64,000 nt of DNA from Candidatus Tayloriibacteriota bacterium (GTDB lineage Bacteria; Patescibacteriota; Minisyncoccia; Phycocordibacterales; PALSA-1337). Location of the stretch: assembly GCA_052034805.1 (NCBI GenBank), contig JBPOID010000005.1:50984-114983 (forward strand). Direction: 5' to 3'. This document shows positions 3,449 through 38,854 of this stretch, one piece after another. The notes beneath the pieces are model-generated. The model was given only the letters and a program-made list of their open reading frames with translations, searched no databases and had not been told where the DNA came from. Within the stretch, counting starts at the first letter, position 1; every line of letters starts with the position of its first letter. A program made the translations under genes and the position numbers.

Positions 3449-4291
3449 TTAATTAGTGAAAACTCTAAAGATTCCGGAGTCTCCACTTGAATCTACGGGA
3501 TACATGGTGATATCCCCGTAGATGAAGAATGGCTTTAAAGCCATTTCATTCCATGTTTTGAAATCGTTAGATTTCTCGACATGGATATGTGTGTATTCCC
3601 ATGGGGAATCTACAAAGAGATAGGTACCGTCCGGAATCCCATCAAGATTTTTTATGACCTTGATCTCAAGTGATGTTTTCTTTGCATAGTCCATCACTGC
3701 AAATTCCTCGAATGTATCTATGATAGTACCAACCTCAAAGGAATCAGACCCTTCACCCCAAGTAATAGAGATCGTGGGGTATCTGGTGCTACCATCATAA
3801 GCAATGAAGACATTGAATGTCTCGCTACCGATCTTAAAGCTTCCATAGCTATAAAGATTTTTCATCAACCCTTCAGGGGTCAATGAATAATCATATACGC
3901 TAGTACGATGATCTTCTGTCTTCAGAGCTGGAGAAAATTTTTCCCCAGTCAACACATCGGTAAAGACAGGTGTTGAAACTATCCCATCTAGACCTGTCGG
4001 TATGGGAGATAGTCTGAGGATTCTTCCTCCTGCAAGGGATTTCGTCTTGATAACGAAATAATCGTAATTCCCCTGCTGGGAAGATGCAGAGTTTGACCAA
4101 TCTCCCTCTGTACTAACCCAATGAAGTGGGTAGTTCTGGCTCTGAGCTATCTCCTTATAGTAAAGGATATTGGTTTTGAACGCCTCGCTTACGCGAGGGA
4201 TCCTCACCACCGGCTCAGATGCCTCCGAGAAGATCTGAAACACGAATGATAAGATAACCGACAGAATGACAATGAACTTTGTTGTTTTCAC
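3449..4291 (-). CDS. secreted hypothetical protein (signal peptide), GC-richer than the housekeeping genes
   Basis: Long ORF with an N-terminal signal-like hydrophobic segment and no motif I recognise; its composition differs from the flanking AT-rich genes. Confidence 0.5.
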   Translation of the reverse strand: MKTTKFIVILSVILSFVFQIFSEASEPVVRIPRVSEAFKTNILYYKEIAQSQNYPLHWVSTEGDWSNSASSQQGNYDYFVIKTKSLAGGRILRLSPIPTGLDGIVSTPVFTDVLTGEKFSPALKTEDHRTSVYDYSLTPEGLMKNLYSYGSFKIGSETFNVFIAYDGSTRYPTISITWGEGSDSFEVGTIIDTFEEFAVMDYAKKTSLEIKVIKNLDGIPDGTYLFVDSPWEYTHIHVEKSNDFKTWNEMALKPFFIYGDITMYPVDSSGDSGIFRVFTN

Positions 4292-4540: not shown

Positions 4541-5203
4541 TCAATGATTGAAATACAACCACGACCATGTCGTGACCATCCATGTGAGCTCATTGCCCGT
4601 CTCACTGATGAATAGTCCGATGTTCTTCTTCGTCCAGCCATCTTGTTTGGCTGTGACTGCGATCTCTATAGCTCTCACAATAACTGTGATATGCCCAATG
4701 ACAAGAGACATTCCAGCCAACCCATCGTTTCGCCCTGCTTTGAATATGCAGTAAGCGATATAGAGTTGTGGAGTGCTCTTAACAATAATGGACATTAAGC
4801 CTCTATTGATCGGCTCGACGAAAGTTTCCATCACAGAACCTTTTGATCTTACAATCATAAGGACAGTGAGAGATGCGATAACCAGAAGTGTTACCAATGT
4901 ATCACTTTTCGTCCAGTATCCCTTTAGAGAAATAATGACGAACATAGTGGCCCATAGTAACAACCAGTTGGCATATACAAGAGTGACTTGCATAGCCTTT
5001 CGACTGCCTGAATCCCAATAAGCACTGAGAGCCAGGAAGAAATTAATTGTGACGAAGATCGAACAGAGCATAGACCATGTGATGGTCATGCCAGTCGTCG
5101 TTGTGAATGATCTGTGTATCTGCGGGATGCTGAAGCACCACGCCATAATGATCTGGAACCAGAAAAGCAGGTCCCCGATCATATTTTTGTTTTTATTAGA
5201 CAA
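4541..5203 (-). CDS. PQ-loop-repeat-like polytopic membrane protein
   Basis: About 7 TM segments; two PQ motifs (SIPQIHRSF and STPQLYIAY) in positions consistent with the two PQ-loop repeats; GC-richer composition. Confidence 0.4.
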   Translation of the reverse strand: MSNKNKNMIGDLLFWFQIIMAWCFSIPQIHRSFTTTTGMTITWSMLCSIFVTINFFLALSAYWDSGSRKAMQVTLVYANWLLLWATMFVIISLKGYWTKSDTLVTLLVIASLTVLMIVRSKGSVMETFVEPINRGLMSIIVKSTPQLYIAYCIFKAGRNDGLAGMSLVIGHITVIVRAIEIAVTAKQDGWTKKNIGLFISETGNELTWMVTTWSWLYFNH

Positions 5204-5858: not shown

Positions 5859-6410
5859 TTACGGTTTTTTGAAAAGCACTATTATGAGTAGAATGGTGTT
5901 AAAGAAAATACCATTAACTGCATTGATGATTCCTCCCAAGCTCCAATCTGATCCGATCAATGTGAGTAAACACGATAAAGCACTAAATCCCCAAACAGGC
6001 CAAGTGTCTTTTATCGGATTTCTCCATAAATCGATGAAATTGGGAATACCAGCTATATTCATCGCAGTTATACTACCCATAAGACCTATCAATGCACCAT
6101 ATCTAAACCAAATGTATGCACTGATGATAGCCCCGATGGCACAGATAGTCTCTTTATAAGACCAAATCCATTTCCCTCGTACGAACAATGCAATAGCTAC
6201 AGAAGTAGAACCCAAAACCCAAGCCCCTGGCAGATAACCTGGTTCATTATTCGCTATGGTAGTAGCTAGAAGTAGAGAATCAAGCACCACCCACATTACC
6301 CAAGTCGCTCCCGTAGAAGCATGAGCCTTTCGAGTCCATACATTGTAGGCGTACCATAAAAATACACCCAATGCCATTGCACCTCCTGAATATGTAAAGA
6401 ACGTTTTCAA
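5859..6410 (-). CDS. polytopic membrane protein (unknown function)
   Basis: 183 aa ORF with 5-6 hydrophobic segments and clean coding statistics. Confidence 0.45.
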   Translation of the reverse strand: MKTFFTYSGGAMALGVFLWYAYNVWTRKAHASTGATWVMWVVLDSLLLATTIANNEPGYLPGAWVLGSTSVAIALFVRGKWIWSYKETICAIGAIISAYIWFRYGALIGLMGSITAMNIAGIPNFIDLWRNPIKDTWPVWGFSALSCLLTLIGSDWSLGGIINAVNGIFFNTILLIIVLFKKP

Positions 6411-11987: not shown

Positions 11988-12653
11988 ATGAAAGATGTGA
12001 TACCCATTGTAATCACGGTTACTGTATTCTTTCTTGCTACAGTGGTGTACTGCTCATTCTTTGAATGGAATTTGCACAAACACTGGATGCATAAACCTTG
12101 GAAAATACCTTTCACAAAATGGAAGGTAGAATATCCCTTCAAAGCACATGCTCTGACTCATCATGTGATCTTTAGAGCAGATGAAACATATCATCTCATA
12201 AAAGATGAAGACAAATGGACTATACCTATGGCCTGGTGGAATGGACCGGTGCTCGTTGCCGTATCCTCCACACCATGGATCATTCCATCTATCATAGTGC
12301 ATTCTGTATTCTCTATATCATTTTGGGTGCCTTATACGGCTTCTACCGTTACCATAGCACTCTATTATGTTATATATGAATACATTCATTGGTGCATGCA
12401 TTTGCCACAACCCAAACATCAGAGACTTTTGGAACGTTCTAGTTTGTTCAGAAAGCTGAACGGCCATCATCTCTTGCATCACTTTTGTCAGCACAAGAAT
12501 TTCAATGTGGTTTTTCCACTTGCTGATTTCTTCATGGGTACCTTGATCACGGTTTCCAAATTTCGTTTCAATCAGCCGGAAGGACCGAGCGTACCCAATG
12601 TTCAACCTGACGGAATATCATTGCCTGATAAGAAATTAGTAGGCAATACTTAA
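11988..12653 (+). CDS. fatty acid hydroxylase / sterol desaturase superfamily membrane protein
   Basis: Three His boxes (HKHWMH, HWCMH, HHLLHH) in TM-flanking positions. GC content is above the housekeeping background. Confidence 0.6.
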   Translation: MKDVIPIVITVTVFFLATVVYCSFFEWNLHKHWMHKPWKIPFTKWKVEYPFKAHALTHHVIFRADETYHLIKDEDKWTIPMAWWNGPVLVAVSSTPWIIPSIIVHSVFSISFWVPYTASTVTIALYYVIYEYIHWCMHLPQPKHQRLLERSSLFRKLNGHHLLHHFCQHKNFNVVFPLADFFMGTLITVSKFRFNQPEGPSVPNVQPDGISLPDKKLVGNT

Positions 12654-13084: not shown

Positions 13085-13118
13085 AAAGCAAAATAAAAAG
13101 CGGCGCAACATATGTTGC
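13085..13118 (-). terminator. intrinsic terminator on the minus strand
   Basis: Minus strand reads aagcggtgcaacatatgttgcgccgctt (12 bp stem, one G.U pair) followed by TTTTATTTT. Confidence 0.6.
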
Positions 13119-13400
13119 ACCGCTTCGGCCTAAGCCTTATGGTATCACTCGCGCATGCGAGTACGACCGCTACGGTCGCATTTGACCCGATCCTGAAGCT
13201 TCAGATGTTGTCCAGTATTCGCAGGAATGGCAAACCGGTTGAAAAAATCAATCCCCTCTCCAGCCCTACTCTCTTCCTCGTTACCCCTCCTTGCTTGACG
13301 GGCACTGTGTACTGCGATTTGTCCGCCAGTAGTCAGGACGTTCTGATCATTAACTTTACTCAGGTCTTTCGCCATAGTATTGTAGACTCCGATTTTTTAA
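13119..13400 (-). ncRNA. GC-rich (~50%) transcribed element ending at the terminator: candidate structured ncRNA, or a foreign 76 aa ORF
   Basis: Local GC far above the flanks; several local hairpins (ctgaagcttcag, cgaccgtagcggtcg, ctcgcatgcgcgag). It also carries a GGAG-preceded 76 aa ORF (13145..13375). I cannot tell from sequence alone whether it is coding or structural. Confidence 0.3.
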
Positions 13401-13510
13401 CTACCATTTTTACCAGTATATCCACAACAGATATACTACTCCAACAAAGAATAGTACAAGAACGAATAACAAATGTCAAATGAATTATCAACAAAAATAA
13501 TAAATAGAAT

Positions 13511-16763: not shown

Positions 16764-17837
16764 CTAAATAGAAAAATCTTTCAAAGAATATATTTCTTGA
16801 TTTTCTTCTTCTTTGACTTCTTCTCTTGATCTATCGTCAACAGGTTTATCGTCTTTTGATTCTCCATTTACAATATCTAATGGTGTAGATTTTGATATTG
16901 AAGATATATTTTCTTGAACATATTGTTCTCTTTCTTTTATATGTAATGCATCTATTTCATCTGCACTCATTGCACTGTTTGTATTGTTTGAATTATTAGA
17001 AACTCTATCAGAAATCTTATCTATTATCTTGTGAACATCACTTGCAGTATAGAAATCAATAGTTATACGTCCACCACGGCCGAGTTTGTTTATACTTACT
17101 TTTGTACCAAGCATTTCTTTGAATTTATTTTCAAGCTCAAGCATATCTGGTTCATTTGACCAATCCTTCTTTCTAACTCTATCTTGGGCTGTACGACGAG
17201 CAATAGACTCTGCTTCGCGTACGCTTATCTTTCTAAACATTATTTCTTTAAAGAGAGTCATTTGCTCTTCTTTATGATCTGTAAGCATAAGCAATGGTCT
17301 AGTATGACCTTCTGCTATTTTGCCTTCAGAAAGAGCATTCAATATTTCTTCTGGCAAAGCGAGAATTCTCATAGTATTGGAAACATATTCCCTACTTTTA
17401 CCAACTTTCTCGGCTACTTGTGCGTGCTTTAGATTGAATTCTTTCACAAGGCGATCGAAAGCACGTGCACGATCCACTGCATTTATATCTTCTCTTTGTA
17501 AGTTTTCTATTATGGCTAATTCTAGTTTTATCCTAGGATCATTTTCTCCACTTCGGATAAGCGCTGGCACCTGAGCAAGTCCCGCTACTTTTGAAGCGCG
17601 TAAACGACGTTCTCCAGATATGAGTTCATATTCAACAGCCATACCACCATCAGGCTTTTCATATTCATGACGAGTAACTATAAGAGGTTGTAGAATACCG
17701 TACATTCTTATAGACTCAGCCAAATCTCTGATTTTATCATCATCGAATTCTCTTCTAGGCTGATATGGGTTTGGTTTTATTTTTTCTATTTCAATCCAAA
17801 AGACTGAATCACCAAAATATTGTGATGTATTAGGCAT
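16764..17837 (-). CDS. parB: chromosome partitioning protein ParB/Spo0J
   Basis: IEKIKPNPYQPRREF N-terminal box, HTH core, and a C-terminal acidic tail. Confidence 0.85.
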   Translation of the reverse strand: MPNTSQYFGDSVFWIEIEKIKPNPYQPRREFDDDKIRDLAESIRMYGILQPLIVTRHEYEKPDGGMAVEYELISGERRLRASKVAGLAQVPALIRSGENDPRIKLELAIIENLQREDINAVDRARAFDRLVKEFNLKHAQVAEKVGKSREYVSNTMRILALPEEILNALSEGKIAEGHTRPLLMLTDHKEEQMTLFKEIMFRKISVREAESIARRTAQDRVRKKDWSNEPDMLELENKFKEMLGTKVSINKLGRGGRITIDFYTASDVHKIIDKISDRVSNNSNNTNSAMSADEIDALHIKEREQYVQENISSISKSTPLDIVNGESKDDKPVDDRSREEVKEEENQEIYSLKDFSI

Positions 17838-17937: not shown

Positions 17938-18018
17938 GCCAGAGTGATGAAATAGAAAACATACTCGACTCAAAATCGAGCGCCGTAAGGCTTGTGGGTG
18001 CAAGTCCCACCTCTGGCA
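17938..18018 (+). tRNA. degenerate class-II tRNA-like sequence (tRNA-Leu CAA-like; probable pseudo-tRNA)
   Basis: 7 bp acceptor gccagag/ctctggc, anticodon stem ctcga/tcgag with loop CTCAAAA, a long variable arm, and a T-stem gtggg/cccac. However the D-loop lacks G18G19 and the T-loop reads TGCAAGT, so U55 is replaced by G. Confidence 0.4.
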
Positions 18019-18193
18019 CAGAATACTATAGGAAATATATAGACCTGAGTCTCACCATGCCCACTATTGACAAATCTATATATGTATATTAATATTTTTA
18101 TAGATTGGATAGTTCCAGTTCTACTGCATAGCTTGTCCATTTATAAAAGGATGCAAAGCAGTAAAAACAAAACAACAAAATAAAGAGGTACGT

Positions 18194-19279
18194 ATGAACC
18201 TAAAACTGATGAGGCCAAGTCTCGATGCTATCACCGTGATAGACAAAGACGGTAAACCCCAAGAAAGATTGGTTTTCCGGGGTGTTATCGATGCAAGTAC
18301 GATTGATTCCATCAAAACAGCTGAATACCAGAGGGAAATTCTCTCTGGAGTAAAGGCTAGCTCACTTACTGTGGCGGCCAAGAATTCTACCCTGCCGGAT
18401 ATTGAGCTCGGTATGCGCGGAGACAGATATCAAACAAGGATAGATAAAGACAGGAATGAAGAATTCTTTATCTTACTTGATGATATCTATGTCATCGACG
18501 GCCTACAGAGAATCAACGCTATCAGAACAGTGATGGCGAGTAAGCCTGAGAATCTTCCGAGGATCGGGGCAATGATTCACACTGATACCGATTTTGATTG
18601 GGAGCGAGAGAGATTTCGTACACTCAATCAAGAAAGATCAAGACTTTCACCAAGCATTCTGCTTAGGAACGCAAGAAAAGATCATCCCGGTCTCGAATTG
18701 CTCTATAACCTGAGCACGACCGACTCCAGCTTTATCTTGAATGGTAAAGTGTCATGGGAACAAAGGCAAAAGAAAACTGAGCTCATACCAGCAATGCGCT
18801 TTTGTCGAACCGTGAGTTATCTGCATTCAAGGTTTATCCCTGGTGGTAGATCAGATGATGTTAGAGAACTCATACCATCTCTTGATAAAAAAAGAGATCT
18901 GGTTGGTCCTAATATCATGAGAGATAATATCAAAGCATTCTTTGACCTCATCGATGAATGCTGGAATATCAGACACATTGTCTACAGAGAGCAACAACCT
19001 CAGATCAAGGCGACATTCCTTGAAGTGGTTGCCGACTTTTTGACGAGACATGAGATTTTCTGGAGTGACAAGCGACTGTTCGTGAAAGCTGATCACAAGA
19101 AAAAGCTTTCGAAATTCGCCATAACCGATCCAGAGGTATCCAGACTCTGCGGTTCTGGTGGACAAGCAAGAAATATTCTGTTCCAAATGCTGATTGAACA
19201 CTTTAACAGTGGCAAAAGGCATGGAAGAATCGGAGTAGAACACACGAATGGAAACAGCGAGGAGAATGGGCATGAATAG
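18194..19279 (+). CDS. DGQHR/DndB-like (ParB-Srx nuclease superfamily, DUF262-like) protein; GC-richer foreign-looking gene
   Basis: YVIDGLQRINAI matches the DG(Q)xR box of the DndB / DUF262 / ParB N-terminal domain. Length is 361 aa. An RBS aaagagg precedes the ATG. GC is about 45% by eye. Confidence 0.5.
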   Translation: MNLKLMRPSLDAITVIDKDGKPQERLVFRGVIDASTIDSIKTAEYQREILSGVKASSLTVAAKNSTLPDIELGMRGDRYQTRIDKDRNEEFFILLDDIYVIDGLQRINAIRTVMASKPENLPRIGAMIHTDTDFDWERERFRTLNQERSRLSPSILLRNARKDHPGLELLYNLSTTDSSFILNGKVSWEQRQKKTELIPAMRFCRTVSYLHSRFIPGGRSDDVRELIPSLDKKRDLVGPNIMRDNIKAFFDLIDECWNIRHIVYREQQPQIKATFLEVVADFLTRHEIFWSDKRLFVKADHKKKLSKFAITDPEVSRLCGSGGQARNILFQMLIEHFNSGKRHGRIGVEHTNGNSEENGHE

Positions 19280-19307
19280 TATCCTCTGTTTCAACTAAAT
19301 ACTATCA

Positions 19308-19340
19308 ACCAGCACCCCTTAAAAGGTGCTGGCTTTTTTA
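19308..19340 (+). terminator. intrinsic terminator
   Basis: Stem ccagcacc/ggtgctgg, loop ccttaaaa, then CTTTTTTAT. Confidence 0.65.
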
Positions 19341-19364
19341 TACAAAAAGCATAATATATTATAA

Positions 19365-20219
19365 ATGAAAACTGAAATCGTAATCATACTCGGCCCAACA
19401 GCTGTAGGAAAAAGTGATTTCGCAGTAGAATACGCCATAAAAAATAATGGTGAAATAATATCTGCAGATTCTAGACAGGTATATAAGAAACTAGATATAG
19501 GTACAGGAAAAATAACAAAAGAAGAAATGAAGGGTATACCCCATTATCTTTTAGATATAGTAGATGCAAAAGAACAATTCAATGTAGATAAATGGAAAAC
19601 ATTAGCAGAAAAAGCTATTGTTGATATTTCGAATAGAGGAAAATTACCCATAATATGTGGCGGTACAGGTTTCTATATAGATGCATTAGTAAATGATATT
19701 TCTTATCCAGATATACCACACAATGAAAAGTTGCGTGAAGAGTTGAAAGATAAAGATAAAAAAGAAATATTAAATATATTAGAAAAATTAGACAAAGATT
19801 ATGTTAATAGATTAAATAATTCAGAAAAAAATAATAAACAAAGATTAATACGAGCCATAGAAATAGTACAATCAAAAGGCAAAATGCAAGAAATTATCCA
19901 TAAAAAAGATAATGATAAATACGATGTAACATGGATCGGACTTAATTGTGATATAGAAATATTGAAAGAAAGAATACATAATCGCCTAATAAAGCGCATA
20001 GAAAAAGGTATGATAGAGGAAGTAGAAGATCTATATAAACAAGGTCTTTCTTGGAATAGAATGGAAGAATTGGGACTTGAATATAGATATATATCTAGAT
20101 ATTTGAGAGGAATGATTACAAAAGAAGAAATGATAAAACAATTAGAATTAGAAATAAATCATTATGCAAAAAGACAAATGGTATGGTTCAAGAGAAATAA
20201 AAAGATAGAATGGGTGTAA
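19365..20219 (+). CDS. miaA: tRNA dimethylallyltransferase
   Basis: P-loop GPTAVGKS near the N-terminus and IPHYLLDI; typical MiaA length. Confidence 0.9.
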   Translation: MKTEIVIILGPTAVGKSDFAVEYAIKNNGEIISADSRQVYKKLDIGTGKITKEEMKGIPHYLLDIVDAKEQFNVDKWKTLAEKAIVDISNRGKLPIICGGTGFYIDALVNDISYPDIPHNEKLREELKDKDKKEILNILEKLDKDYVNRLNNSEKNNKQRLIRAIEIVQSKGKMQEIIHKKDNDKYDVTWIGLNCDIEILKERIHNRLIKRIEKGMIEEVEDLYKQGLSWNRMEELGLEYRYISRYLRGMITKEEMIKQLELEINHYAKRQMVWFKRNKKIEWV

Positions 20220-20287
20220 AGAATGGGTGTAAAAAAGAACCACGCGCTTGCGCACGTGGTTTTGGAAAACTAAAATTCAAGAATTGA

Positions 20288-21220
20288 CTAGAATTGCTTT
20301 GGCAGGAATCCAGATGCAGCACCATAGCCCGCAGAAACACTATAAACATTACTAGCATCAAAAGATAGCATCCCATTCTCTTCATCGAATTCAAAGCAGG
20401 GCGACCTAGAGAAGTTGCCTTCCTCATCAGAGAACCATTCGTCGCCTGCACAATCAATCCACAAATCATCGTAATCTTGAATACGATCAGGATGTGTGAG
20501 AAGCATCGAACCTACAGCGAATACACCAAGGCCGAATTCATATTCCATATCTTCCATGATGACTCTCGAACGATTGGTAGAACGACCACGATGACGAAGG
20601 CCGAACTGAGCAGGAATGATGAGAATATTAGCATCACCTTGTGTTCTAGCTATCTCATTCCAGAATTGCTCGGAACGACTAGACTGACGCAAATACTTAT
20701 CATTCATTTCATCAGCAAGTGACCTGTAGTTACGTATACTCTTGATAGTAGAGATGATTCTCTTTACCGCCTCACAATAGGTAGAACCGAAAACTTCAGG
20801 ATTCTTCTTCCAGTTAGGAATAGCGAACCAACCTTCTGCAAATCTTGGTAGTCCAGCCGAACGAATACTATTAGTATTGACGAGTATTGTCCGACTGCTT
20901 ACAAAGATCTCTGGAAACAATCCACATAGAAGACTTATCTGATGAGATAAATCCAGAAGTTTGTAACCCGATGGATAACCAGATATGGATTCAATCTCTT
21001 GTTCAGCATACTCATCTACATTTTCAAACTTAGCAATCTGACGAGCAACAAGTGACTGAATGGACGTCACGAATTCAGGATTACCTTTGACGCGTTCCGC
21101 ACTCTTCTCGTTCAAAGCATCAAGTGCATTTTGCACAGGATCAGAATCTGCAACATCACTGATCATACGGATAAGTTGCTTCCTTTGATCATCACTTATC
21201 CCTTCTTGAGTAAGTGCCAT
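20288..21220 (-). CDS. hypothetical cytoplasmic protein, GC-richer (foreign-looking)
   Basis: 310 aa ORF with clean coding statistics and no motif I recognise. It lies between miaA and tRNA-Trp. Confidence 0.5.
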   Translation of the reverse strand: MALTQEGISDDQRKQLIRMISDVADSDPVQNALDALNEKSAERVKGNPEFVTSIQSLVARQIAKFENVDEYAEQEIESISGYPSGYKLLDLSHQISLLCGLFPEIFVSSRTILVNTNSIRSAGLPRFAEGWFAIPNWKKNPEVFGSTYCEAVKRIISTIKSIRNYRSLADEMNDKYLRQSSRSEQFWNEIARTQGDANILIIPAQFGLRHRGRSTNRSRVIMEDMEYEFGLGVFAVGSMLLTHPDRIQDYDDLWIDCAGDEWFSDEEGNFSRSPCFEFDEENGMLSFDASNVYSVSAGYGAASGFLPKQF

Positions 21221-21355
21221 AGACGTTAGCTCCTTTCATGTATGCCGGATTCGCCCCAGCGATTGCGGGTAATTTTTGATGTTTCCATGTCAAATTTCCA
21301 GAGAAAACTATACAATATAGTACAGTATAATGCAATGATTTTAAAAACAAAGTTG

Positions 21356-21426
21356 CGGGCGATCGAGGAATCGAACCCCGGACAACGGTTTTGGAGACCG
21401 TAGTTATACCACTTAACTAATCGCCC
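21356..21426 (-). tRNA. tRNA-Trp (anticodon CCA)
   Basis: Acceptor gggcgat/atcgccc, anticodon stem acggt/accgt with loop CTCCAAA, and T-loop TTCGATT. Confidence 0.8.
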
Positions 21427-21448
21427 TAATATACTTTGACAGTATATC

Positions 21449-21604
21449 TTATTTCTTAGCTTCTTTGAAGACTATGTGTTTACGTAGAGATTTACTATAT
21501 TTCTTTAATTCTATTTTCTTCTCTACTGTTTTTCTGTTTTTACGAGTAATATAGATTTCTCCTGTCTCTTTATTACGAAGTGTTATTAGTTTATCTTGTG
21601 ACAT
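21449..21604 (-). CDS. rpmG: 50S ribosomal protein L33
   Basis: Manual translation gives MSQDKLITLRNKETGEIYITRKNRKTVEKKIELKKYSKSLRKHIVFKEAKK (51 aa). This matches the L33 pattern YxTxKNxR...KLELKKY...RKHVxxKE. It is below the ORF-track length cutoff. Confidence 0.75.
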   Translation of the reverse strand: MSQDKLITLRNKETGEIYITRKNRKTVEKKIELKKYSKSLRKHIVFKEAKK

Positions 21605-21773
21605 ATTGTATAAAAATCTTAAATATTGTTTACATACATTAACCTATATTGTATAAAAAAGCAAATGGGTCTTTTTTTATATAAAAAGAAAACCGCCTCA
21701 TGCGAAAGCATAAAGCGGTCTTTTGAAACCAATGTTGAGAGTGTATCTTGTGATCACTCTCGGCTAGTTTGGT

Positions 21774-22829
21774 CTAGCCTTTGCCACCATCGGACGGACC
21801 AGTATAAAGTTTTCCGGGCTTTTGAAAATCAACCCAGTCAAACTTTACACGATATGTTCCATCTGCTGGAAACACAACAGTATATTCACTGTTAAATTTA
21901 CCAGCACCGGTCCAAGGTCCACCGACCTGACTGAAACTAAGAGCAAAAGGATGTTCAATATTAACTTCGGCGCCATCCTGAACTAAACCACTAATGTCAA
22001 ACCTGATGACTTGACCTTTGGTAACTGTGATCAGGACCGTGGGTTTATTGTAAACTTCCACGATTTTCACCAGCGCTACATCCTTCGGTGAAAGTTCGAA
22101 AACATAGTGACCTTCGATCTTCCAAGATCCATTTCTCTCATTGGTGGCGCCAGGGGTATTACCCTTAGCATCCCAAAGATTATAGGTCATAACATTTCCA
22201 TCAGTGAATCTGATAGAGAGAATACCATTAGGTACACCCGCCATCCAAGTATCAAACAAGACTCTATTATTATTCACTGACACGCTCTCTTTCCGAACAG
22301 TGTTACCATCATCGCCGATAACAAGGATTTCGGCTGATTGAACCTGATCCCCAATCGCAACTCTTTGAATCCAGATATTGTACTGAGGAGGTCCATACTT
22401 TCCGATCTCTGAAACGAGATAGGAAGCGTAGCCGTAGAAAACAAGGTTATTGTCCTTGTCGTAAAGCCACACATGACCCTCGATTTTGTCGAGAGGATTT
22501 GCGACTTTGTACTTGAACTCAACAGCGAAAAGCTGATTGAGTACATCTTCTGCTCCGTTACCAGTCTTACTGGCATAGATGACAGAATTGTCATCATAAA
22601 CCATACTCGATGAAGATACCGACCTCGCCCCACGGACAACTTGTCCGAGAGCATAATTCCTGATCGTATCTTTGGACTGAATCGGCATGTCTACCGCCAG
22701 AGCTTTCGTGCTGAAACTGAAACCGATCACCATCATCAAGATAGCAACGATACTACGAATCATGATTTTCATTGTCTTTGTTTCCTTCTTTGGTTTTTCC
22801 TGTGTTTTGTTTTTTGTTGATACTAACAC
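21774..22829 (-). CDS. secreted hypothetical protein (signal peptide, beta-rich), GC-richer
   Basis: Basic N-terminus plus a hydrophobic segment, then a long domain with no motif I recognise. A terminator-like compound hairpin lies at about 21690..21730. Confidence 0.5.
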   Translation of the reverse strand: MLVSTKNKTQEKPKKETKTMKIMIRSIVAILMMVIGFSFSTKALAVDMPIQSKDTIRNYALGQVVRGARSVSSSSMVYDDNSVIYASKTGNGAEDVLNQLFAVEFKYKVANPLDKIEGHVWLYDKDNNLVFYGYASYLVSEIGKYGPPQYNIWIQRVAIGDQVQSAEILVIGDDGNTVRKESVSVNNNRVLFDTWMAGVPNGILSIRFTDGNVMTYNLWDAKGNTPGATNERNGSWKIEGHYVFELSPKDVALVKIVEVYNKPTVLITVTKGQVIRFDISGLVQDGAEVNIEHPFALSFSQVGGPWTGAGKFNSEYTVVFPADGTYRVKFDWVDFQKPGKLYTGPSDGGKG

Positions 22830-22861
22830 CGAAATTGCTTGTTCAATTCATTCTGTCGTTA

Positions 22862-23233
22862 CTACTTCTGTGCCTCTCTCGCAATCTTTTGACGAGCGAG
22901 AATTTCACTTTCGGCCATTGGAATTGGCTGATTTGATGAAGCACCGATCATATTGAAAGATGCACCCTTATCAACCACCTCAATGACTTCCTGCTCCTGA
23001 CCAGCTCGCTTCGCCATGATCTCTGCTTTGGCATCATGACTGCGATTGTTTGCCGGTACTGCATTCTGCAGAACCGGTGTGGTGTCTTTCTTGAACATAG
23101 GCACCATAACGATGGAGACCATGACGAGAATGAGACCCAAACAGAAGAGAACCACAGGGGTTCTCACGACTTTGTTGTCTCGCCTATCGACGATACGATG
23201 ATTGGTTGCCAGAAACTTATGTCCCATAATCAA
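22862..23233 (-). CDS. small membrane-anchored protein co-oriented with 21774..22829
   Basis: One TM segment (VVLFCLGLILVMVSIVMV) and a hydrophilic C-terminus; GC-richer composition. Confidence 0.45.
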   Translation of the reverse strand: MIMGHKFLATNHRIVDRRDNKVVRTPVVLFCLGLILVMVSIVMVPMFKKDTTPVLQNAVPANNRSHDAKAEIMAKRAGQEQEVIEVVDKGASFNMIGASSNQPIPMAESEILARQKIAREAQK

Positions 23234-23422
23234 GTCCTTTCAGAAAATCCGCTCTTCATATAACCAAATCCTCTCACACGAGAGAATCCTTTTTACATTG
23301 GTTTGACAAAGAACAGATTAGGCCTTTACTAGGCCATAATTCGATTTACTGTCAAATATAGTATCATAAAATAGGCGTAGAGTCAATGGGTATAATTAGC
23401 ATAAAAAAGTTACAATATCCCA

Positions 23423-24671: not shown

Positions 24672-25511
24672 TTATTCGGCATAAACTACAGCTGTATTTG
24701 TATAACCTGTATTAGCTGAACCCTTATAAGATCTTACTCTATAATAAGCTGTATTCGGCATATTATAATCTGTATAACTTGTAATATTTGAACTAGCAGT
24801 TCCAATTTGACTGAAAGTTACATTATTTGAACTCCTTTCAATTTTGAAACCATCTTCATTTGAAGAATTATCATTCCATCTCAATATAACTGATGTTGTA
24901 GTAGCTGTTGATGTAGATACTGCTGTTAGATTTGATGGTGCAGGTGTATATGTTATAGATGTATTAATATTACTCATCTTTACACCACCTCCACCGCTTG
25001 TATAAACAGCGCCTATTTCAAGTGTAGATGTAGAAGTTTTTATAAATGTTAAACCACTAAATGTAGTTGTTGATAGTGTAGTAGGAACTGTTCCACTAAG
25101 TTTATAATCACCACTATCAGCACTATTATTTCCAGAAAAACGATAGAAAACATTCATAGTTGTTGTTCCACCAGTTGTATTTATACGAGAAGCACAAGGA
25201 GTTATACTAATATCAGTAATTACTGAACTTGTTGAAATATTAGATAAATTTATCTTGTATGAATCTCTTGAGGTTGTTGCTGAAGTATAGACGTAATCAG
25301 TATTACCATTACATGGAGTTTCGTCAACCATTGTGTAATGTAACGTACTTGTACTCACTGACCAACTCTGATATGTTCCATCTTCAATAGGGACAAGAAC
25401 TGATGTTATATTAGCCAATGCAACAAACTTAAAAAGAAGAATGCCGGCTAACACAAAAAAACCGAATGACAAAAAATACTTATACTTAGAAATACGATCG
25501 ATATATGACAT
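24672..25511 (-). CDS. Ser/Thr-rich surface protein with a C-terminal fibronectin type III-like domain
   Basis: N-terminal TM or signal segment, a T/S-rich low-complexity region, and an FN3-like LRWNDNSSNEDGFKIERS motif. Confidence 0.5.
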   Translation of the reverse strand: MSYIDRISKYKYFLSFGFFVLAGILLFKFVALANITSVLVPIEDGTYQSWSVSTSTLHYTMVDETPCNGNTDYVYTSATTSRDSYKINLSNISTSSVITDISITPCASRINTTGGTTTMNVFYRFSGNNSADSGDYKLSGTVPTTLSTTTFSGLTFIKTSTSTLEIGAVYTSGGGGVKMSNINTSITYTPAPSNLTAVSTSTATTTSVILRWNDNSSNEDGFKIERSSNNVTFSQIGTASSNITSYTDYNMPNTAYYRVRSYKGSANTGYTNTAVVYAE

Positions 25512-34466: not shown

Positions 34467-34539
34467 GCGCCCATAGCTCAGTTGGTAGAGCAGATCCCTC
34501 TTAAGGATAAGGTCGTAGGTTCGACCCCTACTGGGCGCA
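34467..34539 (+). tRNA. tRNA-Lys (anticodon CTT)
   Basis: Acceptor gcgccca/tgggcgc, D-arm TAGCTCAGTTGGTAGAGC, anticodon loop CTCTTAA, and T-loop TTCGACC. Confidence 0.85.
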
Positions 34540-34594
34540 CAAGTTTCAATAAAATTGAAACGAATATATAATATAATTCAGTTATATATTATAT

Positions 34595-34675
34595 GCCGAG
34601 GTGGCGAAATTGGCAGACGCACTTGCCTTAGGAGCAAGCGGGGTGACCCATGGAGGTTCAAGTCCTCTCCTCGGC
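34595..34675 (+). tRNA. tRNA-Leu (anticodon TAG)
   Basis: Acceptor gccgagg/cctcggc, anticodon loop CTTAGGA, a long variable arm, and T-loop TTCAAGT. Confidence 0.8.
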
Positions 34676-34819
34676 ACAATCTGATATAAAACCCATATAA
34701 ATACCCATTGACAAAAGGGTTATTTGATGTATAATTATATAAGAACAGGCATTTAAACCGAAGCTAAAGCTTAGGTTGAAAGTTGAAATAACAATCAAAA
34801 TAAGGGGAAAGAAAAGTTT

Positions 34820-35989
34820 ATGATTCGATCATGGATGGCTGAAGATGGGAGAACGATCTGGGCGGAAGCTCCGGATAAATACCCTCAATGGATGGTTGGT
34901 GTGGCCAAAATTGGGTTTCTAAATTACCTGAATCCCTTCGGAGAAAGGGTTATGTCAGAGAAAGAAGAGCTGAAGCCCGTCTCCAAGGGAGACAAGGACG
35001 GCGAAGACAATATCGCCAAAGCCGGTAACGTTTGGTACAAGCTCGAGGTCAGCAAGAAACTAGCCCTTAAGAAGGGTAAAAAATATATGGTAGAAATCAT
35101 GCCATATGAGATGCCCCCCGTCCCTGGACCAGGAACTACATCACCCACTCCAGTCCCAACAAAAGACTTGTACAGAGTGGACCTCTCGAGGGTGAACAAG
35201 GGAAAGAAAGGGTTTTGGCTTTTTCTATTCATTCTTGCAACCATCATTGTACTCGGAACAATCGGCTACAAGACCTTTCAGTGGTATAAAAACCACAAAA
35301 AAGAATCCGTGCCGATCATGGGTACAAACAGTGTAGGAAATGGCGTAGAACAATTGATCCAGAAAAACCTGGAAATGTCGGGAAAGATTGAGGAGTTGGA
35401 GAAGAAATTGGAAGAGCAAAGGAAGAAAAGCTCTACCAACTCATCGACTTCTTCTATTTATCCCACCCCACCGACGAATTCGACACCAACGAATCTGCCC
35501 ACGAGTGTTTCCCTCACCCACACTACAAATCAAATTGTAGTGACCAATATCAGTCAGGAAAGAGAAAGTCGGGAAAGGATTGATTCTGGCGGGCAAGTTG
35601 TTGTAGTGAACGGAGGTGGAAATAAATTCACCTTCCATAACTATAACGGTAGAAGTAACGGGGACACATACAACACATCACCAAAAGTGATGTGGCCGGA
35701 CGATAGCAGGCCAAATCGTCACTACCCTATTATGGGCGAAAAGGTGGATTTGCCACCTGGTGAAGATTACTGCTATTGTTACCCTACTACTGGAAAGTGG
35801 AGGGTGGACGTATATACTGATGCGGAATCAGTGAAAAGTGCCTACAATGTAGGCACCGAGCAAGAACCTAAATGGGTTCTAACGCGGGATTTCAATCCCA
35901 CTCAAACAGCAGTTGGGCTCAGACTCAAAAATCTGAGTCAAACAAAGATAAGTGTCACATTTGTTCTTACAAGGAAAGCAGGTCCTTGA
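34820..35989 (+). CDS. single-pass membrane protein with a coiled-coil and a Pro/Thr-rich linker (unknown function), GC-rich
   Basis: Central TM segment (FWLFLFILATIIVLGTIGY), then an EELEKKLEEQRKK coiled region and a low-complexity TPPTNSTPTN linker; about 48% GC by eye. Confidence 0.5.
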   Translation: MIRSWMAEDGRTIWAEAPDKYPQWMVGVAKIGFLNYLNPFGERVMSEKEELKPVSKGDKDGEDNIAKAGNVWYKLEVSKKLALKKGKKYMVEIMPYEMPPVPGPGTTSPTPVPTKDLYRVDLSRVNKGKKGFWLFLFILATIIVLGTIGYKTFQWYKNHKKESVPIMGTNSVGNGVEQLIQKNLEMSGKIEELEKKLEEQRKKSSTNSSTSSIYPTPPTNSTPTNLPTSVSLTHTTNQIVVTNISQERESRERIDSGGQVVVVNGGGNKFTFHNYNGRSNGDTYNTSPKVMWPDDSRPNRHYPIMGEKVDLPPGEDYCYCYPTTGKWRVDVYTDAESVKSAYNVGTEQEPKWVLTRDFNPTQTAVGLRLKNLSQTKISVTFVLTRKAGP

Positions 35990-36015
35990 GGAGCGAACTA
36001 CACTAGGGCATGGCG

Positions 36016-36049
36016 CAAGCCATGCCCTTTATTATTTTTATATATGATA
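36016..36049 (+). terminator. intrinsic terminator
   Basis: gggcatggcgcaagccatgccc followed by TTTATTATTTTT. Confidence 0.65.
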
Positions 36050-36201
36050 CTCCAAGCATTAAAAACGCCATTTTAGCTAATAATTTAAGGATATAAATGA
36101 TATTGACTTTATGTCTTATTTATGTTAATATAATAAGAGAAACAAAGAGATCGGTGTTAATAAACAAAAACACTTTTGACAACAAAAAACAGGAGACAAA
36201 A

Positions 36202-37161: not shown

Positions 37162-37574
37162 TGGGTACAACAACAAAAGAAGGTGTAATAAAGACCCTGT
37201 CTTTCATTACACTAATTCTCATCATAATAGGGACTGCAACCTATTTTAAATTCAAATACCACTCTAGCGGTGGCATCATGCAGTACATCGTCGGAGATGA
37301 TACGAAACCTCGTCATTCTCTAGTCATCACCGAAGATTGGTCCAAGTCAATCCCCATCAACGTCAACAGTTACCTAAGGGAAGACGAAACCTGGGTAGAA
37401 GTATGCGTGGTGGGAGGCGGTACAAACGGTGACTTCATCTATGATGTTCCTCCGAAAAGCATGAGGGGGAACGACTGGAGGCCACCAGAGCTCAAAGGTA
37501 TATCTCTACGATACCGACTGGCTCCTGGAAAGAACAAAGTTAAGTCAGCAGAAATATTCTATGTTATGAAGTAG
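37158..37574 (+). CDS. small membrane-anchored protein, possibly the NfeD-like partner of the SPFH protein
   Basis: Overlaps the SPFH gene stop (ATGA), has an N-terminal TM and a beta-rich C-terminal domain. The pairing with SPFH is an inference from the known SPFH-NfeD operon arrangement. Confidence 0.3.
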   Translation: MMGTTTKEGVIKTLSFITLILIIIGTATYFKFKYHSSGGIMQYIVGDDTKPRHSLVITEDWSKSIPINVNSYLREDETWVEVCVVGGGTNGDFIYDVPPKSMRGNDWRPPELKGISLRYRLAPGKNKVKSAEIFYVMK

Positions 37575-37958: not shown

Positions 37959-37967
37959 AGTTATGTA

Positions 37968-38333: not shown

Positions 38334-38420
38334 AAAATAAAAAATAATTAATAAACTTTTCTATATTGTATCAATATACTATGTATAATACAAATACTAT
38401 TGTGGATACAAATGACGATA

Positions 38421-38837: not shown

Positions 38838-38854
38838 ATTTTTTATATTATAAT

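What the first reader, a model, noticed from the sequence alone, without database searches (positions are those of the whole stretch)
18194..19279. Orphan DGQHR/DndB-like ParB-nuclease-superfamily protein in a ~45% GC single-gene island
YVIDGLQRINAI is the diagnostic box of the DndB / DUF262 / ParB N-terminal domain. In known systems such proteins accompany DNA phosphorothioation (dnd) or GmrSD-type restriction modules, but no partner genes are present here. The gene is compositionally foreign, framed by the pseudo-tRNA upstream and a strong terminator downstream, and separated by native miaA from another foreign ORF (20288..21220). It is a candidate stand-alone defence or DNA-modification-sensing protein, or a remnant of a larger system.
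Basis: partly seen in the sequence, partly recalled or inferred. Interest (0 to 1): 0.6.

Follow-up and report, generated by a model that had tools for sequence, protein, structure and literature searches.

The report
Orphan ParB-fold gene cassette insertion
A 1.3-kb self-contained gene cassette, inserted between a tRNA gene and miaA in a tiny candidate-phyla-radiation (CPR, Patescibacteria) bacterial genome, encodes a stand-alone nucleotide-switch protein distantly related to phage-defence sensors; its family is uncatalogued, also occurs in phage-like DNA, stays oddly GC-rich, and carries its own conserved leader RNA hairpin.

Summary
The ORF is real: 18194..19279 (+), 361 aa. It has the ParB/Srx fold, with YQRE and IDGLQR motifs of the DUF262/DGQHR type. 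All curated HMM hits (DndB, DGQHR, GmrSD_N, DzbA) are below threshold. There is no HNH/DUF1524 module and no dnd, ssp, dpd or dzbB partner in the window.

It belongs to a small uncurated family: 516 clusters among 1.84 billion representative proteins. Members occur as solitary genes in Patescibacteria chromosomes and inside phage-like metagenomic contigs. The closest characterised relative is DzbA of the Dazbog abortive-infection system (hhalign probability 94%).

The "foreign single-gene island" reading is correct. GC3 is 0.44 against about 0.18 for native genes. A close relative has the empty site, with tRNA-Leu(CAA) followed 12 bp later by miaA. The upstream tRNA is genuine, not a pseudo-tRNA.

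The inserted unit is a cassette: promoter, structured 5' leader, ORF and terminator. Three findings were unexpected:
- The gene is GC-richer than its chromosomal neighbours in nearly all genomes that carry it.
- This excess holds even between syntenic orthologues whose synonymous sites are saturated.
- The family has leader hairpins with covariation that are absent from Rfam.

Function is inferred, not shown. The most likely role is an NTP-gated DNA-sensing protein of mobile-element origin. It is not a remnant of a larger system.

The parts
17938..18019 (+). tRNA-Leu(CAA). A genuine, conserved flank. Its 3' end is the left boundary of the insertion.
   Evidence: ARAGORN; Rfam tRNA 52.6 bits; the same tRNA precedes miaA in L112, L113 and L115.
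18020..19364 (+). Inserted cassette of about 1.34 kb, absent from the syntenic site of related genomes.
   Evidence: In L112, tRNA-Leu is at 277-359 and miaA starts at 372. In L115, the tRNA ends at 6000 and miaA starts at 6001. No flanking repeat exceeds chance.
18067..18095 (+). Sigma-70-like promoter, TTGACA-17-TAATAT.
   Evidence: Consensus scan, 10 of 12 matches. The block is conserved in L117, L119 and L005, which carry the gene at a different chromosomal site.
18103..18120 (+). Leader hairpin 1, at or near the predicted 5' end of the transcript.
   Evidence: MFE fold. The pairs are kept in four loci, and pair 18108-18115 reads GC/AT/CG/CG.
18122..18163 (+). Leader hairpin 2: outer stem UACUGC/GCAGUA, a GC/GC step, inner stem GUCC/GGAU and a 10-nt loop. 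It has the same architecture as the family-wide 'type-1' leader hairpin.
   Evidence: MFE fold, z = -2.36. Compensatory changes occur at 18124-18161, 18125-18160 and 18127-18158 among four loci. The type-1 covariance model does not detect it, so homology to type 1 is inferred from architecture only.
18184..18190 (+). Shine-Dalgarno sequence AAAGAGG, upstream of the ATG at 18194.
   Evidence: Read directly from the sequence.
18194..19279 (+). ORF of 361 aa: a stand-alone ParB/Srx-fold (DUF262/DGQHR-like, DzbA-like) protein.
18326..18337 (+). YQRE motif (residues 45-48), nearly invariant in the family. I equate it with the FQR/box I motif of DUF262 and ParB.
   Evidence: Alignment A1; aligned to the EIQR of a true DzbA by hhalign. 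The equivalence to box I rests on my knowledge of those families.
18395..18421 (+). PDIELGMRG motif (residues 68-76), a family-specific invariant block.
   Evidence: Alignment A1.
18497..18511 (+). DGLQR motif (residues 102-106), the GxxR-type phosphate-binding box at the junction of strand 97-102 and helix 104-116.
   Evidence: D102, G103, Q105 and R106 are invariant; secondary structure from DSSP on the model.
18686..19225 (+). C-terminal all-helical domain (about residues 165-344). It ends in a conserved basic patch H-x-N-x-GKR and is followed by an acidic disordered tail.
19309..19340 (+). Intrinsic terminator: 8-bp GC-rich stem followed by a T-run.
19365..20219 (+). miaA, a native gene forming the right flank of the insertion.
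   Evidence: Pfam IPPT 1e-68; GC3 0.18.

Best explanation
SHOWN. Window 18020..19364 is a self-contained, horizontally acquired one-gene cassette. It comprises a promoter, a two-hairpin 5' leader, a Shine-Dalgarno site, a 361-aa ORF and a terminator. It is inserted between tRNA-Leu(CAA) and miaA of a low-GC Patescibacteria (CPR) genome. The product has an N-terminal ParB/Srx nucleotide-binding fold of the DUF262/DGQHR type and a helical C-terminal domain with no recognisable nuclease. It belongs to a small, sharply delimited, uncurated family. That family occurs as solitary genes in many CPR chromosomes and inside phage-like metagenomic contigs, next to recombination genes.

INFERRED. By analogy with its nearest relatives, the protein is most likely an NTP-gated DNA-sensing or DNA-binding switch of mobile-element origin. 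Those relatives are DzbA of Dazbog, the GmrS/BrxU/SspE N-domains and DndB. The YQRE/DGLQR pocket would bind and hydrolyse a nucleotide. Nucleotide state would be coupled to recognition of DNA, possibly modified or foreign DNA, through the N-terminal beta extension and the C-terminal helical domain. The outcome would be exclusion of, or defence against, invading DNA, or repression of a target. Expression is probably controlled through the conserved leader hairpin, possibly by the protein itself. It acts alone and is not the leftover of a multi-gene system.

The confidence given applies to the whole statement, including the inferred function. For the shown, descriptive part alone I would put it at about 0.85.
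For: Fold and motifs:
- AF2 model: pLDDT 89.6, pTM 0.72.
- BFVD gives 25 hits at E <= 1e-3 to stand-alone viral 'GmrSD_N' or 'DNA-sulfur modification-associated' proteins of 280-440 aa.
- Weak but co-linear HMM hits: DGQHR residues 97-210 to profile 98-213, DndB 97-157 to 99-160. GmrSD_N is hit in 20 of 38 members.
- hhalign of the family profile against a bona fide DzbA: probability 94.3%, E 1e-7.

Family:
- 257 hits by the indexed search and 516 by the exhaustive profile search, nearly all about 340-390 aa and matched full length, with no Pfam domain.

Insertion:
- Empty sites in L112, L113 and L115.
- WIN and L112 differ at only 0.26-0.36 of 4-fold sites.

Cassette:
- About 130 nt of promoter plus leader is conserved between the window and homologues at a different site, pheS/T|gyrB.

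Stand-alone state:
- Neighbourhoods differ between genomes. The only recurrent neighbour is an HTH-like protein, in 11 of 66 loci.
- No DzbB in the window or in 1.45 Mb of loci.

Constraint:
- dN is 0.15-0.20 where synonymous sites are saturated.

Mobile-element link:
- 38 IMG/VR loci carry the gene beside a serine integrase, a ParB-like gene, a PD-(D/E)XK exonuclease, a RecD-like helicase and Erf. There its GC3 matches its neighbours.

Leader:
- Covariation-supported hairpin: 89% paired, 8 of 11 pairs compensatory, 0 of 500 shuffles reach the observed value.
- All 22 covariance-model hits with E <= 0.15 in 1.3 Mb lie just upstream of this gene.

Literature:
- DUF262 proteins sense modified DNA and use NTP hydrolysis (PMC10952713; bioRxiv 10.1101/2022.08.27.505566).
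- DndB is an ATP-modulated repressor (PMC10853773).
- A DndB-like protein binds ATP and GTP, and orphan ParB-fold proteins are common on mobile elements (PMC12704722).
Against: - No biochemical or genetic datum exists for any member.
- Every curated HMM hit is sub-threshold, and similarity to DzbA covers only about 105 residues.
- Known DUF262 defence proteins work with a fused or adjacent effector (DUF1524, DzbB, OLD nuclease). None is present here.
- The C-terminal domain has no recognisable DNA-binding or catalytic fold.
- No PADLOC, PHROG, cultured-phage or plasmid match.
- The gene's neighbours in CPR genomes are housekeeping genes, not defence islands.
- Only 64 kb of the source genome was visible, so distant partner genes cannot be excluded.
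- The viral status of the IMG/VR contigs rests on the database's classification plus recombination and integration genes. No structural genes were examined, and some large contigs may be CPR fragments.
Confidence: 0.45

Rival explanations
1. Autoregulated DNA-binding regulator. A DndB/KorB-like, nucleotide-modulated repressor whose main target is its own promoter or leader, and perhaps a few host genes, with no role in defence.
For: - Size and motif positions are co-linear with the DndB and DGQHR profiles.
- DndB is an ATP-modulated autorepressor that binds near its own promoter (PMC10853773, PMC4507180).
- A conserved inverted-repeat element sits between the promoter and the Shine-Dalgarno site in most chromosomal copies.
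- An HTH partner is translationally coupled in 11 of 66 loci.
Against: - A regulator that controls only itself has no obvious selective value in a roughly 1-Mb genome.
- No HTH is detected in the protein.
- G-U wobble pairs and strand-specific bulges favour an RNA hairpin over a DNA operator.
- The phage-contig copies lack the leader motif.
Confidence: 0.2
2. Selfish or homing-like element. The ParB/Srx domain would be a nuclease that promotes insertion or retention of its own cassette in intergenic spacers between conserved genes, like free-standing homing endonuclease genes of phages.
For: - It is a one-gene cassette with its own promoter and terminator, inserted exactly in a 0-12-bp tRNA|miaA spacer.
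- The same cassette, including its leader, is found at a different conserved site, pheS/T|gyrB, in the closest homologues.
- Distribution is patchy.
- It is GC-rich relative to the host in 56 of 59 chromosomal loci, and this persists through saturating divergence, which repeated re-invasion would explain.
- Some ParB/Srx proteins are nucleases (Osa; cited in PMC10853773).
Against: - No target-site duplication or conserved junction sequence.
- The homologues at pheS/T|gyrB are less conserved than their flanking genes (75-80% against 87-91%), as expected for vertical descent.
- No nuclease activity has been shown.
- I know of no homing endonuclease with this fold (own knowledge).
- tRNA adjacency holds in only about 6 of 52 loci.
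Confidence: 0.12
3. Phage-derived anti-defence or 'moron' gene now resident in the chromosome. It originally served phages or integrative elements in their early/recombination module, for example to counter host restriction or to manage modified DNA, and is retained or decaying in CPR genomes.
For: - It sits in phage-like modules with matching composition.
- Structural relatives are stand-alone proteins of cyanophages and giant viruses.
- Moron-like anatomy: own promoter, own terminator, foreign GC.
- ParB-fold proteins are enriched on mobile elements and have been suggested to act in anti-defence (PMC12704722).
Against: - Chromosomal copies are intact, keep all invariant motifs and stay under amino-acid constraint across syntenic orthologues.
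- They have acquired a dedicated leader RNA that the phage-contig copies lack.
- The hosts of the viral contigs are unknown.
Confidence: 0.13
4. Degenerate remnant of a larger dnd, ssp, dpd, GmrSD or Dazbog system.
For: Weak similarity to DndB, DGQHR, GmrSD_N, DzbA and DpdB models; no partners present.
Against: - The ORF is full length, with all family-invariant residues.
- The same solitary ~360-aa architecture recurs in hundreds of clusters and more than 60 genomes.
- The closest relative has a clean empty site rather than a decaying system.
- The profile search does not run into the large DndB and DUF262 families: only 516 hits in 1.84 billion proteins.
Confidence: 0.03

Closest known systems
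DzbA of the Dazbog abortive-infection system (PADLOC PDLC03835; Millman 2022, Stokar-Avihail 2022)
   Same: - Similar length (374-393 aa against 361).
- Same order and spacing of the x-QR, LP(D/P)I and YIIDGLQR(I/T)NAI motifs.
- hhalign probability 94.3%, E 1e-7 against a true DzbA (L072, which scores 299 bits on the DzbA model).
- DUF262-type ParB/Srx fold without DUF1524.
   Different: - Scores only 15 bits (E 0.0026) on the DzbA model.
- Similarity is confined to about residues 44-152; the C-terminal half is not alignable.
- No DzbB anywhere in the window or in 1.45 Mb of family loci.
- Occurs in CPR bacteria and metagenomic phage-like contigs rather than in Bacillus or Proteobacteria defence islands.
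DndB / DGQHR-domain proteins (PF14072, TIGR03187, TIGR03233); DpdB
   Same: - ParB/Srx superfamily.
- About 360 aa, with the DGxxR box near residue 100, co-linear with both profiles.
- Helical C-terminal half.
- Possible autoregulation through an inverted repeat near its own promoter.
   Different: - Below curated cutoffs (18.9 against 29.1 bits; 26.4 against 58.85 bits).
- The motif is DG(L/Q)QR, not DGQHR.
- Never linked to dndCDE, sspBCD or dpdA in 66 chromosomal and 34 viral-contig loci.
GmrS / DUF262 N-domains of type IV restriction and PT-sensing enzymes (GmrSD, BrxU 7p9k, SspE 6jiv)
   Same: - (I/V)DGQQR-like box; some family members read IDGQQR.
- Upstream aromatic-QR box.
- 20 of 38 members weakly hit PF03235.
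   Different: - No DUF1524/His-Me nuclease domain.
- Below the Pfam threshold.
- Has an extra N-terminal beta-hairpin extension and the family-specific PDIELGMRG block.
ParB-CTPase-fold switches (ParB, KorB, PadC, Noc) and orphan ParB-like proteins of mobile elements (PMC12704722)
   Same: The best structural matches are PadC, KorB, pNOB8 ParB-N and ParB-CDP. It is orphan and mobile-element associated, like many divergent ParB-fold proteins.
   Different: - No ParB HTH or dimerisation domains and no parA partner.
- The genome's canonical ParB is the separate neighbouring gene at 16764..17837.
- PF02195 is not hit.
Stand-alone viral DUF262/DndB-like proteins (BFVD: cyanophage Syn19, S-RIM2 and S-IOM18 proteins; giant-virus 'GmrSD_N domain' proteins; 'Sulfur modification protein' of uncultured phages)
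   Same: Similar size (280-440 aa). Near full-length structural alignment, TM 0.45-0.51, probability 1.00, E down to 2.5e-9. They are solitary and of unknown function.
   Different: Sequence identity is only 10-15%. No tblastn match among cultured phages and no PHROG family.

Membership tests
ParB/Srx superfamily (fold level) | ParB/Srx alpha/beta core recognisable by structure comparison | tested here: met
   [not shown]
ParB/Srx superfamily (fold level) | GxxR-type phosphate-binding box at a strand-to-helix junction | tested here: met
   D102-G103-L104-Q105-R106 lies between strand 97-102 and helix 104-116. D, G, Q and R are invariant in 38 members.
DUF262 / GmrSD_N (PF03235) | Profile score at or above the Pfam gathering cutoff | tested here: not met
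   16.1 bits against a cutoff of 33.2, E 0.012. 20 of 38 members hit the profile, all sub-threshold; best E 2e-4.
DUF262 / GmrSD_N (PF03235) | (I/V)DGQQR box plus an N-terminal aromatic-QR box | tested here: met
   The window protein reads VIDGLQR, and several members read IDGQQR. YQRE at residues 45-48 is nearly invariant.
GmrSD / BrxU / SspE-type enzymes | Fused or adjacent DUF1524 (His-Me finger) nuclease | tested here: not met
   [not shown]
DndB (PF14072 / TIGR03233) | Profile score at or above the cutoff | tested here: not met
   PF14072: 18.9 bits against 29.1, E 8.8e-4, covering only profile positions 99-160 of 338. TIGR03233 did not appear in the NCBIfam scan at E <= 1.
DndB (PF14072 / TIGR03233) | Linkage to dndCDE (or iscS-dndBCDE) | tested here: not met
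   No such genes in the 64-kb window or in the neighbourhoods of 66 chromosomal loci. The rest of the source genome could not be examined.
DGQHR domain (TIGR03187) | Profile score at or above the NCBIfam cutoff; DGQHR motif | tested here: not met
   26.4 bits against 58.85 (E 5e-6), co-linear (residues 97-210 to profile 98-213). The motif is DGLQR, not DGQHR.
Dazbog (DzbA + DzbB) | DzbA profile match | tested here: not met
   15.2 bits, E 0.0026, against 299 bits for a true DzbA. Remote homology is nevertheless supported by hhalign, probability 94.3%.
Dazbog (DzbA + DzbB) | Adjacent dzbB gene | tested here: not met
   A true DzbB (L072 7015-8082, PADLOC 53.6 bits) has no tblastn match in the window or in 1.45 Mb of family loci. 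No window ORF hits DzbB.
Dpd system (DpdB) | DpdB profile match and linkage to the dpdA transglycosylase | tested here: not met
   Only one member, P0092, gives a weak DpdB hit (E 0.008). No TGT-like neighbour was seen in the contexts examined.
Canonical chromosomal ParB (TIGR00180; PF02195 + PF17762 + PF23552) | ParB_N, HTH_ParB and ParB_C domains | tested here: not met
   None of these is hit by the target. They are all present in the separate neighbouring gene at 16764..17837.
tRNA-targeting integrative island | Integrase gene and att-type direct repeat of the tRNA 3' end | tested here: not met
   No integrase in the 1.34-kb insert. Junction repeats do not exceed shuffled controls. A tRNA lies within about 500 bp of the gene in only about 6 of 52 family loci.
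Known RNA families (Rfam 15) for the 5' leader | Covariance-model match | tested here: not met
   Nothing at gathering thresholds in the window or in 11 family loci. Nothing relevant at E <= 10 in 18020..18200.

The most novel reading that the evidence does not exclude
The family may be a new kind of autonomous one-gene element of CPR bacteria and their phages. In this reading a stand-alone DUF262-like sensor is its own effector, or a homing-type ParB nuclease. It travels as a promoter-leader-ORF-terminator cassette. It is governed by a dedicated, previously undescribed leader RNA. Its GC-rich synonymous composition is actively maintained in AT-rich hosts, either by selection or by recurrent re-acquisition or gene conversion from a GC-rich phage pool.
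Probability: 0.2. Interest if true: 0.75.

Novelty: new variant of a known kind. Interest (0 to 1): 0.55.

Why it matters
CPR/Patescibacteria have tiny genomes and few recognised defence systems, so a conserved, repeatedly acquired stand-alone ParB-fold gene is a good candidate for an unrecognised immunity or exclusion function.

It also offers a minimal model for asking what a DUF262/DzbA-type nucleotide switch does without a partner effector.

Two side results are directly testable:
- A covariation-supported leader RNA motif that is specific to this gene family and absent from Rfam.
- A gene that keeps GC-rich synonymous sites in AT-rich genomes through saturating divergence. This challenges the usual reading of compositional 'foreignness' as a simple clock of recent transfer.

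Tried and rejected
- **C-terminal HNH/DUF1524 module.** Not present.
- **att site or target-site duplication.** The 26-nt imperfect repeat 17948-17973 / 19373-19398 has its second copy inside the conserved miaA P-loop coding region. An 8-bp AATACTAT repeat is no better than shuffled controls.
- **tRNA adjacency as a family rule.** Only about 6 of 52 loci.
- **Cultured phages, plasmids, PHROGs.** No match.
- **PDB by sequence, single protein and profile.** Nothing.
- **AFDB50 fold search.** The library was unavailable, so the C-terminal domain remains unclassified.
- **Paralogy with other GC-rich ORFs of the window.** None.
- **Homologues of those ORFs in the fetched loci.** None, apart from the same organism and one relative.
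- **Toxin-antitoxin reading of the HTH-partner pairs.** Rejected as general, because 55 of 66 loci lack the partner.
- **preQ1-like or other known riboswitch in the A-rich leader.** No Rfam signal, even at E <= 10.
- **Type-1 leader covariance model on the window.** No hit. Equivalence of the window's hairpin rests on architecture and local covariation only.
- **DzbB-like partner among the window's GC-rich ORFs of about 354-389 aa.** None.
Full report
**1. The observation**

An ORF runs from 18194 to 19279 on the + strand and encodes 361 aa. It has a Shine-Dalgarno sequence, AAAGAGG, at 18184-18190. A promoter-like TTGACA-17-TAATAT lies at 18067-18095, and an intrinsic terminator lies at 19309-19332.

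The gene's GC is 0.434 and its GC3 is 0.442. The 64-kb window has GC 0.331, and its recognisable housekeeping genes have GC3 of 0.14-0.25.

The neighbours are DprA, topoisomerase I, canonical ParB on the minus strand, tRNA-Leu(CAA), then the gene, then MiaA, and further on alanine racemase. The upstream tRNA is genuine. ARAGORN calls it, Rfam scores it at 52.6 bits, and it is conserved in relatives. It is not a pseudo-tRNA.

**2. What the protein is**

Curated profile hits are weak and all fall below their cutoffs:
- DndB PF14072: E 8.8e-4, 18.9 bits against a cutoff of 29.1.
- GmrSD_N PF03235: E 0.012.
- DGQHR TIGR03187: E 5e-6, 26.4 bits against 58.85.
- PADLOC DzbA: E 0.0026; NsnA: E 0.013.

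The hits are co-linear: residue 97 of the protein aligns near position 98-99 of both the DndB and DGQHR profiles. Among 38 family members, 20 weakly hit GmrSD_N and 8 hit DndB.

Foldseek against the PDB ranks ParB-CDP and PadC first, with probability 0.99-1.00.

The invariant D102-G-x-Q105-R106 box sits at the junction of a strand and a helix, as the GxxR box does in ParB. Also conserved are YQRE (residues 45-48, Y/Q/R/E each in at least 90% of members), an invariant family-specific block PDIELGMRG (68-76), and W136/E137/R140/F141/N145.

Residues about 165-344 form a helical domain. It ends in a conserved basic patch, H-x-N-x-GKR, followed by an acidic disordered tail. Nothing resembling an HNH/DUF1524 nuclease is present.

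**3. The family**

The indexed search found 257 homologues, nearly all 350-390 aa. All lack precomputed Pfam domains, and every one that carries a name is called hypothetical or uncharacterized. The named ones come from Patescibacteria (Taylor-, Uhr-, Pace-, Parcubacteria).

An exhaustive profile search of 1.84 billion cluster representatives found only 516 proteins at E <= 1e-3, of which 356 were at E <= 1e-30. Most of the 150 listed are matched over nearly the full profile, and nearly all are of the same size. The family is therefore small and sharply bounded, and it does not merge into the very large DndB and DUF262 families.

One genome per species yielded 69 loci, nearly all from CPR MAGs.

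Two marginal hits from Proteobacteria (L072 and L073) proved informative. They are bona fide DzbA proteins of the Dazbog system (PADLOC 299 and 293 bits). In L072 the downstream gene scores as DzbB. hhalign of the family profile against this DzbA gives probability 94.3% and E 1e-7 over residues 44-152.

DzbA is therefore the closest experimentally studied relative. Dazbog is a two-gene abortive-infection system. It is triggered by a phage cytosine methylase, and its first gene carries DUF262 (bioRxiv 10.1101/2022.08.27.505566; PMC10952713). No DzbB homologue exists in the window or in 1.45 Mb of family loci.

**4. Genomic context elsewhere**

In CPR chromosomes the gene is solitary among housekeeping genes, and the neighbourhoods differ from genome to genome.

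The only recurrent neighbour appears in 11 of 66 loci. It is a 220-305-aa protein with a weak HTH_3 signal, immediately downstream in ten loci and two genes downstream in L056. In six of these loci its start overlaps the upstream gene's stop codon. It is absent from the window. A tRNA lies within about 500 bp in only about 6 of 52 loci.

IMG/VR holds 38 further loci. There the gene lies in arrays of short co-directional ORFs. Its neighbours include a large serine recombinase, a ParB-like protein, a PD-(D/E)XK exonuclease, a RecD2-like helicase, an Erf annealase and AAA ATPases.

Cultured phages, plasmids and PHROGs contain no member. BFVD, however, contains many stand-alone viral proteins of 280-440 aa with the same overall fold, annotated GmrSD_N or DndB-like, from cyanophages and giant viruses.

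**5. It is an insertion, and the unit is a cassette**

Close MiaA homologues led to three contigs with the same backbone: DprA-TopA-ParB-tRNA-Leu-MiaA ... tRNA-Trp-L33 ... Alr ... ClpB.
- In L112, tRNA-Leu ends 12 bp before miaA. This relative shares 97% identity over the ParB N-terminus, 91% for Alr and 79% for MiaA.
- In L115 the spacer is 0 bp.
- In L113 it is 349 bp.
- None of the three contains the gene.

The window therefore carries a 1.34-kb insert, 18020..19364. The window and L112 differ at only 0.26-0.36 of fourfold sites, so the insertion at this site is comparatively recent. No flanking repeat exceeds chance.

The closest homologues (59-60% identical: L005, L117, L119) sit at a different site, downstream of pheS/T; where the contig extends far enough (L117, L119) gyrB lies further downstream. 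Even so, about 130 nt upstream of the ORF is conserved between them and the window. This stretch includes the -35 and -10 boxes and two leader hairpins. What moves is thus promoter plus leader plus ORF (plus a terminator).

**6. An unexpected compositional pattern**

The GC excess is not peculiar to this window.
- In 59 chromosomal loci, the gene's median GC3 is 0.74 against 0.47 for its neighbours, a median excess of 0.24.
- It is the single most GC3-rich gene in 45 of those 59 loci (Wilcoxon p = 5e-11).
- In 33 viral-contig loci the excess is only 0.07, and the gene's GC3 tracks its neighbours (Spearman 0.70).

This fits a GC-rich mobile-element pool as the source. Recent transfer alone is not enough, however. 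The syntenic copies in L005, L117 and L119 differ at 64-74% of fourfold sites, which is saturation. They still keep GC4 at 0.43-0.55, beside host genes at 0.08-0.18. The syntenic pairs L012-L026, L024-L025 and L066-L067 show the same pattern.

Either something maintains GC-rich synonymous sites in this gene (selection on codon usage or expression, or biased conversion), or copies are repeatedly replaced from outside. I could not discriminate between these.

**7. A leader RNA motif**

Upstream regions across the family share a nested hairpin, 'type 1': GGGUU-GCU-AU-CCC ... GGG-AGC-UU-AACCC. It lies 15-25 nt before the Shine-Dalgarno site.

On a MAFFT alignment of 19 loci:
- 89% of cells pair.
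- 8 of 11 pairs show compensatory changes.
- The covariation score is 0.359 against 0.151 for shuffles (0 of 500 reach it).
- Slid controls fall to 58% paired or less.

A covariance model searched over 1.3 Mb, both strands, gave 22 hits with E <= 0.15. All lie on the gene's strand just upstream of it, and three were not in the seed. There were no hits in the viral-contig loci. Rfam 15 has no matching family.

The window's leader folds into two hairpins, 18103-18120 and 18122-18163, with z = -2.36. The second has the same architecture as type 1. Both hairpins keep their pairs through compensatory and G-U changes in L117, L119 and L005. The type-1 model does not score the window's version, so its homology to type 1 is an inference. 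A second motif ('type 2') in another clade has weaker support.

**8. Interpretation**

The shown facts are these:
- a ParB/Srx-fold, DUF262/DzbA-like stand-alone protein;
- an uncurated family shared between CPR bacteria and phage-like contigs;
- a recent one-gene cassette insertion;
- moderate amino-acid divergence (dN 0.15-0.20) where synonymous sites are saturated;
- a dedicated leader.

The inferred mechanism is an NTP-gated DNA sensing or binding switch of mobile-element origin, acting alone in exclusion, defence or repression. This rests on what DUF262, DndB and ParB-fold proteins are known to do (PMC10952713, PMC10853773, PMC12704722). Individual-gene HGT among Patescibacteria is documented (PMC12455944).

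The rivals are a pure autoregulator, a homing-like selfish gene and a phage anti-defence moron. A remnant of a larger system is the least likely.

**9. Verdict**

Membership in DndB or DGQHR, a nuclease module and the remnant reading do not.

Novelty: a new variant of a known kind.

Noticed in passing
window 3449-4291(-), 4541-5203(-), 5859-6410(-), 11988-12653(+), 13112-13483(+), 20288-21220(-), 21774-22829(-), 22862-23233(-), 34820-35989(+), 36097-37161(+), 37158-37574(+): Eleven further ORFs have GC3 of 0.34-0.53 against about 0.18 for native genes. They lie in small islands of 1-3 genes between core genes. None has a significant Pfam, PHROG or PADLOC match, and none is paralogous to another. 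About one gene in five in this window looks compositionally foreign.
   Followed up: partly
window 20220-23420; L112, L113, L115: The stretch between miaA and alr is a variable slot. tRNA-Trp and rpmG (L33) are conserved in the window, L112 and L113 (L115 keeps the tRNA-Trp), but the other genes differ in every relative: RibD_C in L112, a PG_binding protein in L115, a 390-aa ORF in L113. Only 22862-23233 has a partial homologue, in L112.
   Followed up: partly
window 34467-37574: A three-gene GC-rich island (34820-37574) starts directly downstream of the tRNA-Lys(CTT) and tRNA-Leu(TAG) pair at 34467-34677. This is another tRNA-adjacent foreign block.
   Followed up: no
window 37641-40989 (-): Four tandem paralogous small proteins carry the T4SS_pilin (TrbC/VirB2-like) domain. 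Next to them is a 560-aa solute-binding protein whose C-terminus gives a sub-threshold (22.4 vs 26.6 bits) hit to the same pilin domain.
   Followed up: partly
L030, L035, L040, L044, L046, L047, L048, L059, L063, L069 (+1 gene); L056 (+2): In 11 of 66 chromosomal loci the family gene is followed by a protein of 220-305 aa, overlapping its stop codon in six of them. This protein has a weak N-terminal HTH_3 signal and is itself GC-rich. It may be an optional partner or regulator. It is absent from the window.
   Followed up: partly
L004, L014, L018, L019, L022, L023, L026, L031, L056: about 40-90 nt upstream of the family gene: A second conserved leader motif, CUCGGACAUAAGG-[variable hairpin]-ACUGCUUCCGGG, occurs in one clade of the family. 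The outer stem shows some covariation: 3 of 8 pairs with double changes, n = 9.
   Followed up: partly
L072 5887-8082 (Pseudoxanthomonas winnipegensis NZ_SHMH01000002.1); L073: A complete Dazbog system (DzbA and DzbB) was picked up only because DzbA shares the YIIDGLQR box with the query family.
   Followed up: yes
L049 (MAG labelled Acidiferrales), L052 (Terracidiphilus), L011 (Nanoarchaeia), L023/L032/L038 ('Gammaproteobacteria'): A few family loci sit in MAGs with non-CPR labels. L049 shares neighbouring genes with the IMG/VR contigs L086 and L092 and looks like a prophage region. The labels may reflect real non-CPR hosts of the phage-borne copies, or binning and labelling errors.
   Followed up: partly
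L021 7226-12768; L046 491-617: In L021 the family gene lies next to a 5S/23S rRNA operon. L046 contains a LOOT RNA (Rfam RF03000, 58.3 bits) about 5 kb upstream of the gene.
   Followed up: no
L115 10801-11631 (-): A relative carries a free-standing LAGLIDADG_3 ORF between alr and clpB, overlapping the tRNA-Tyr call. At the corresponding position the window has an unrelated 279-aa ORF (24672-25511) with only a weak DUF4360 hit.
   Followed up: partly
window 18851-19294 (-): A 147-aa antisense ORF overlaps the 3' part of the gene. It is probably a by-product of the locally high GC, which leaves few stop codons. It was not examined further.
   Followed up: no
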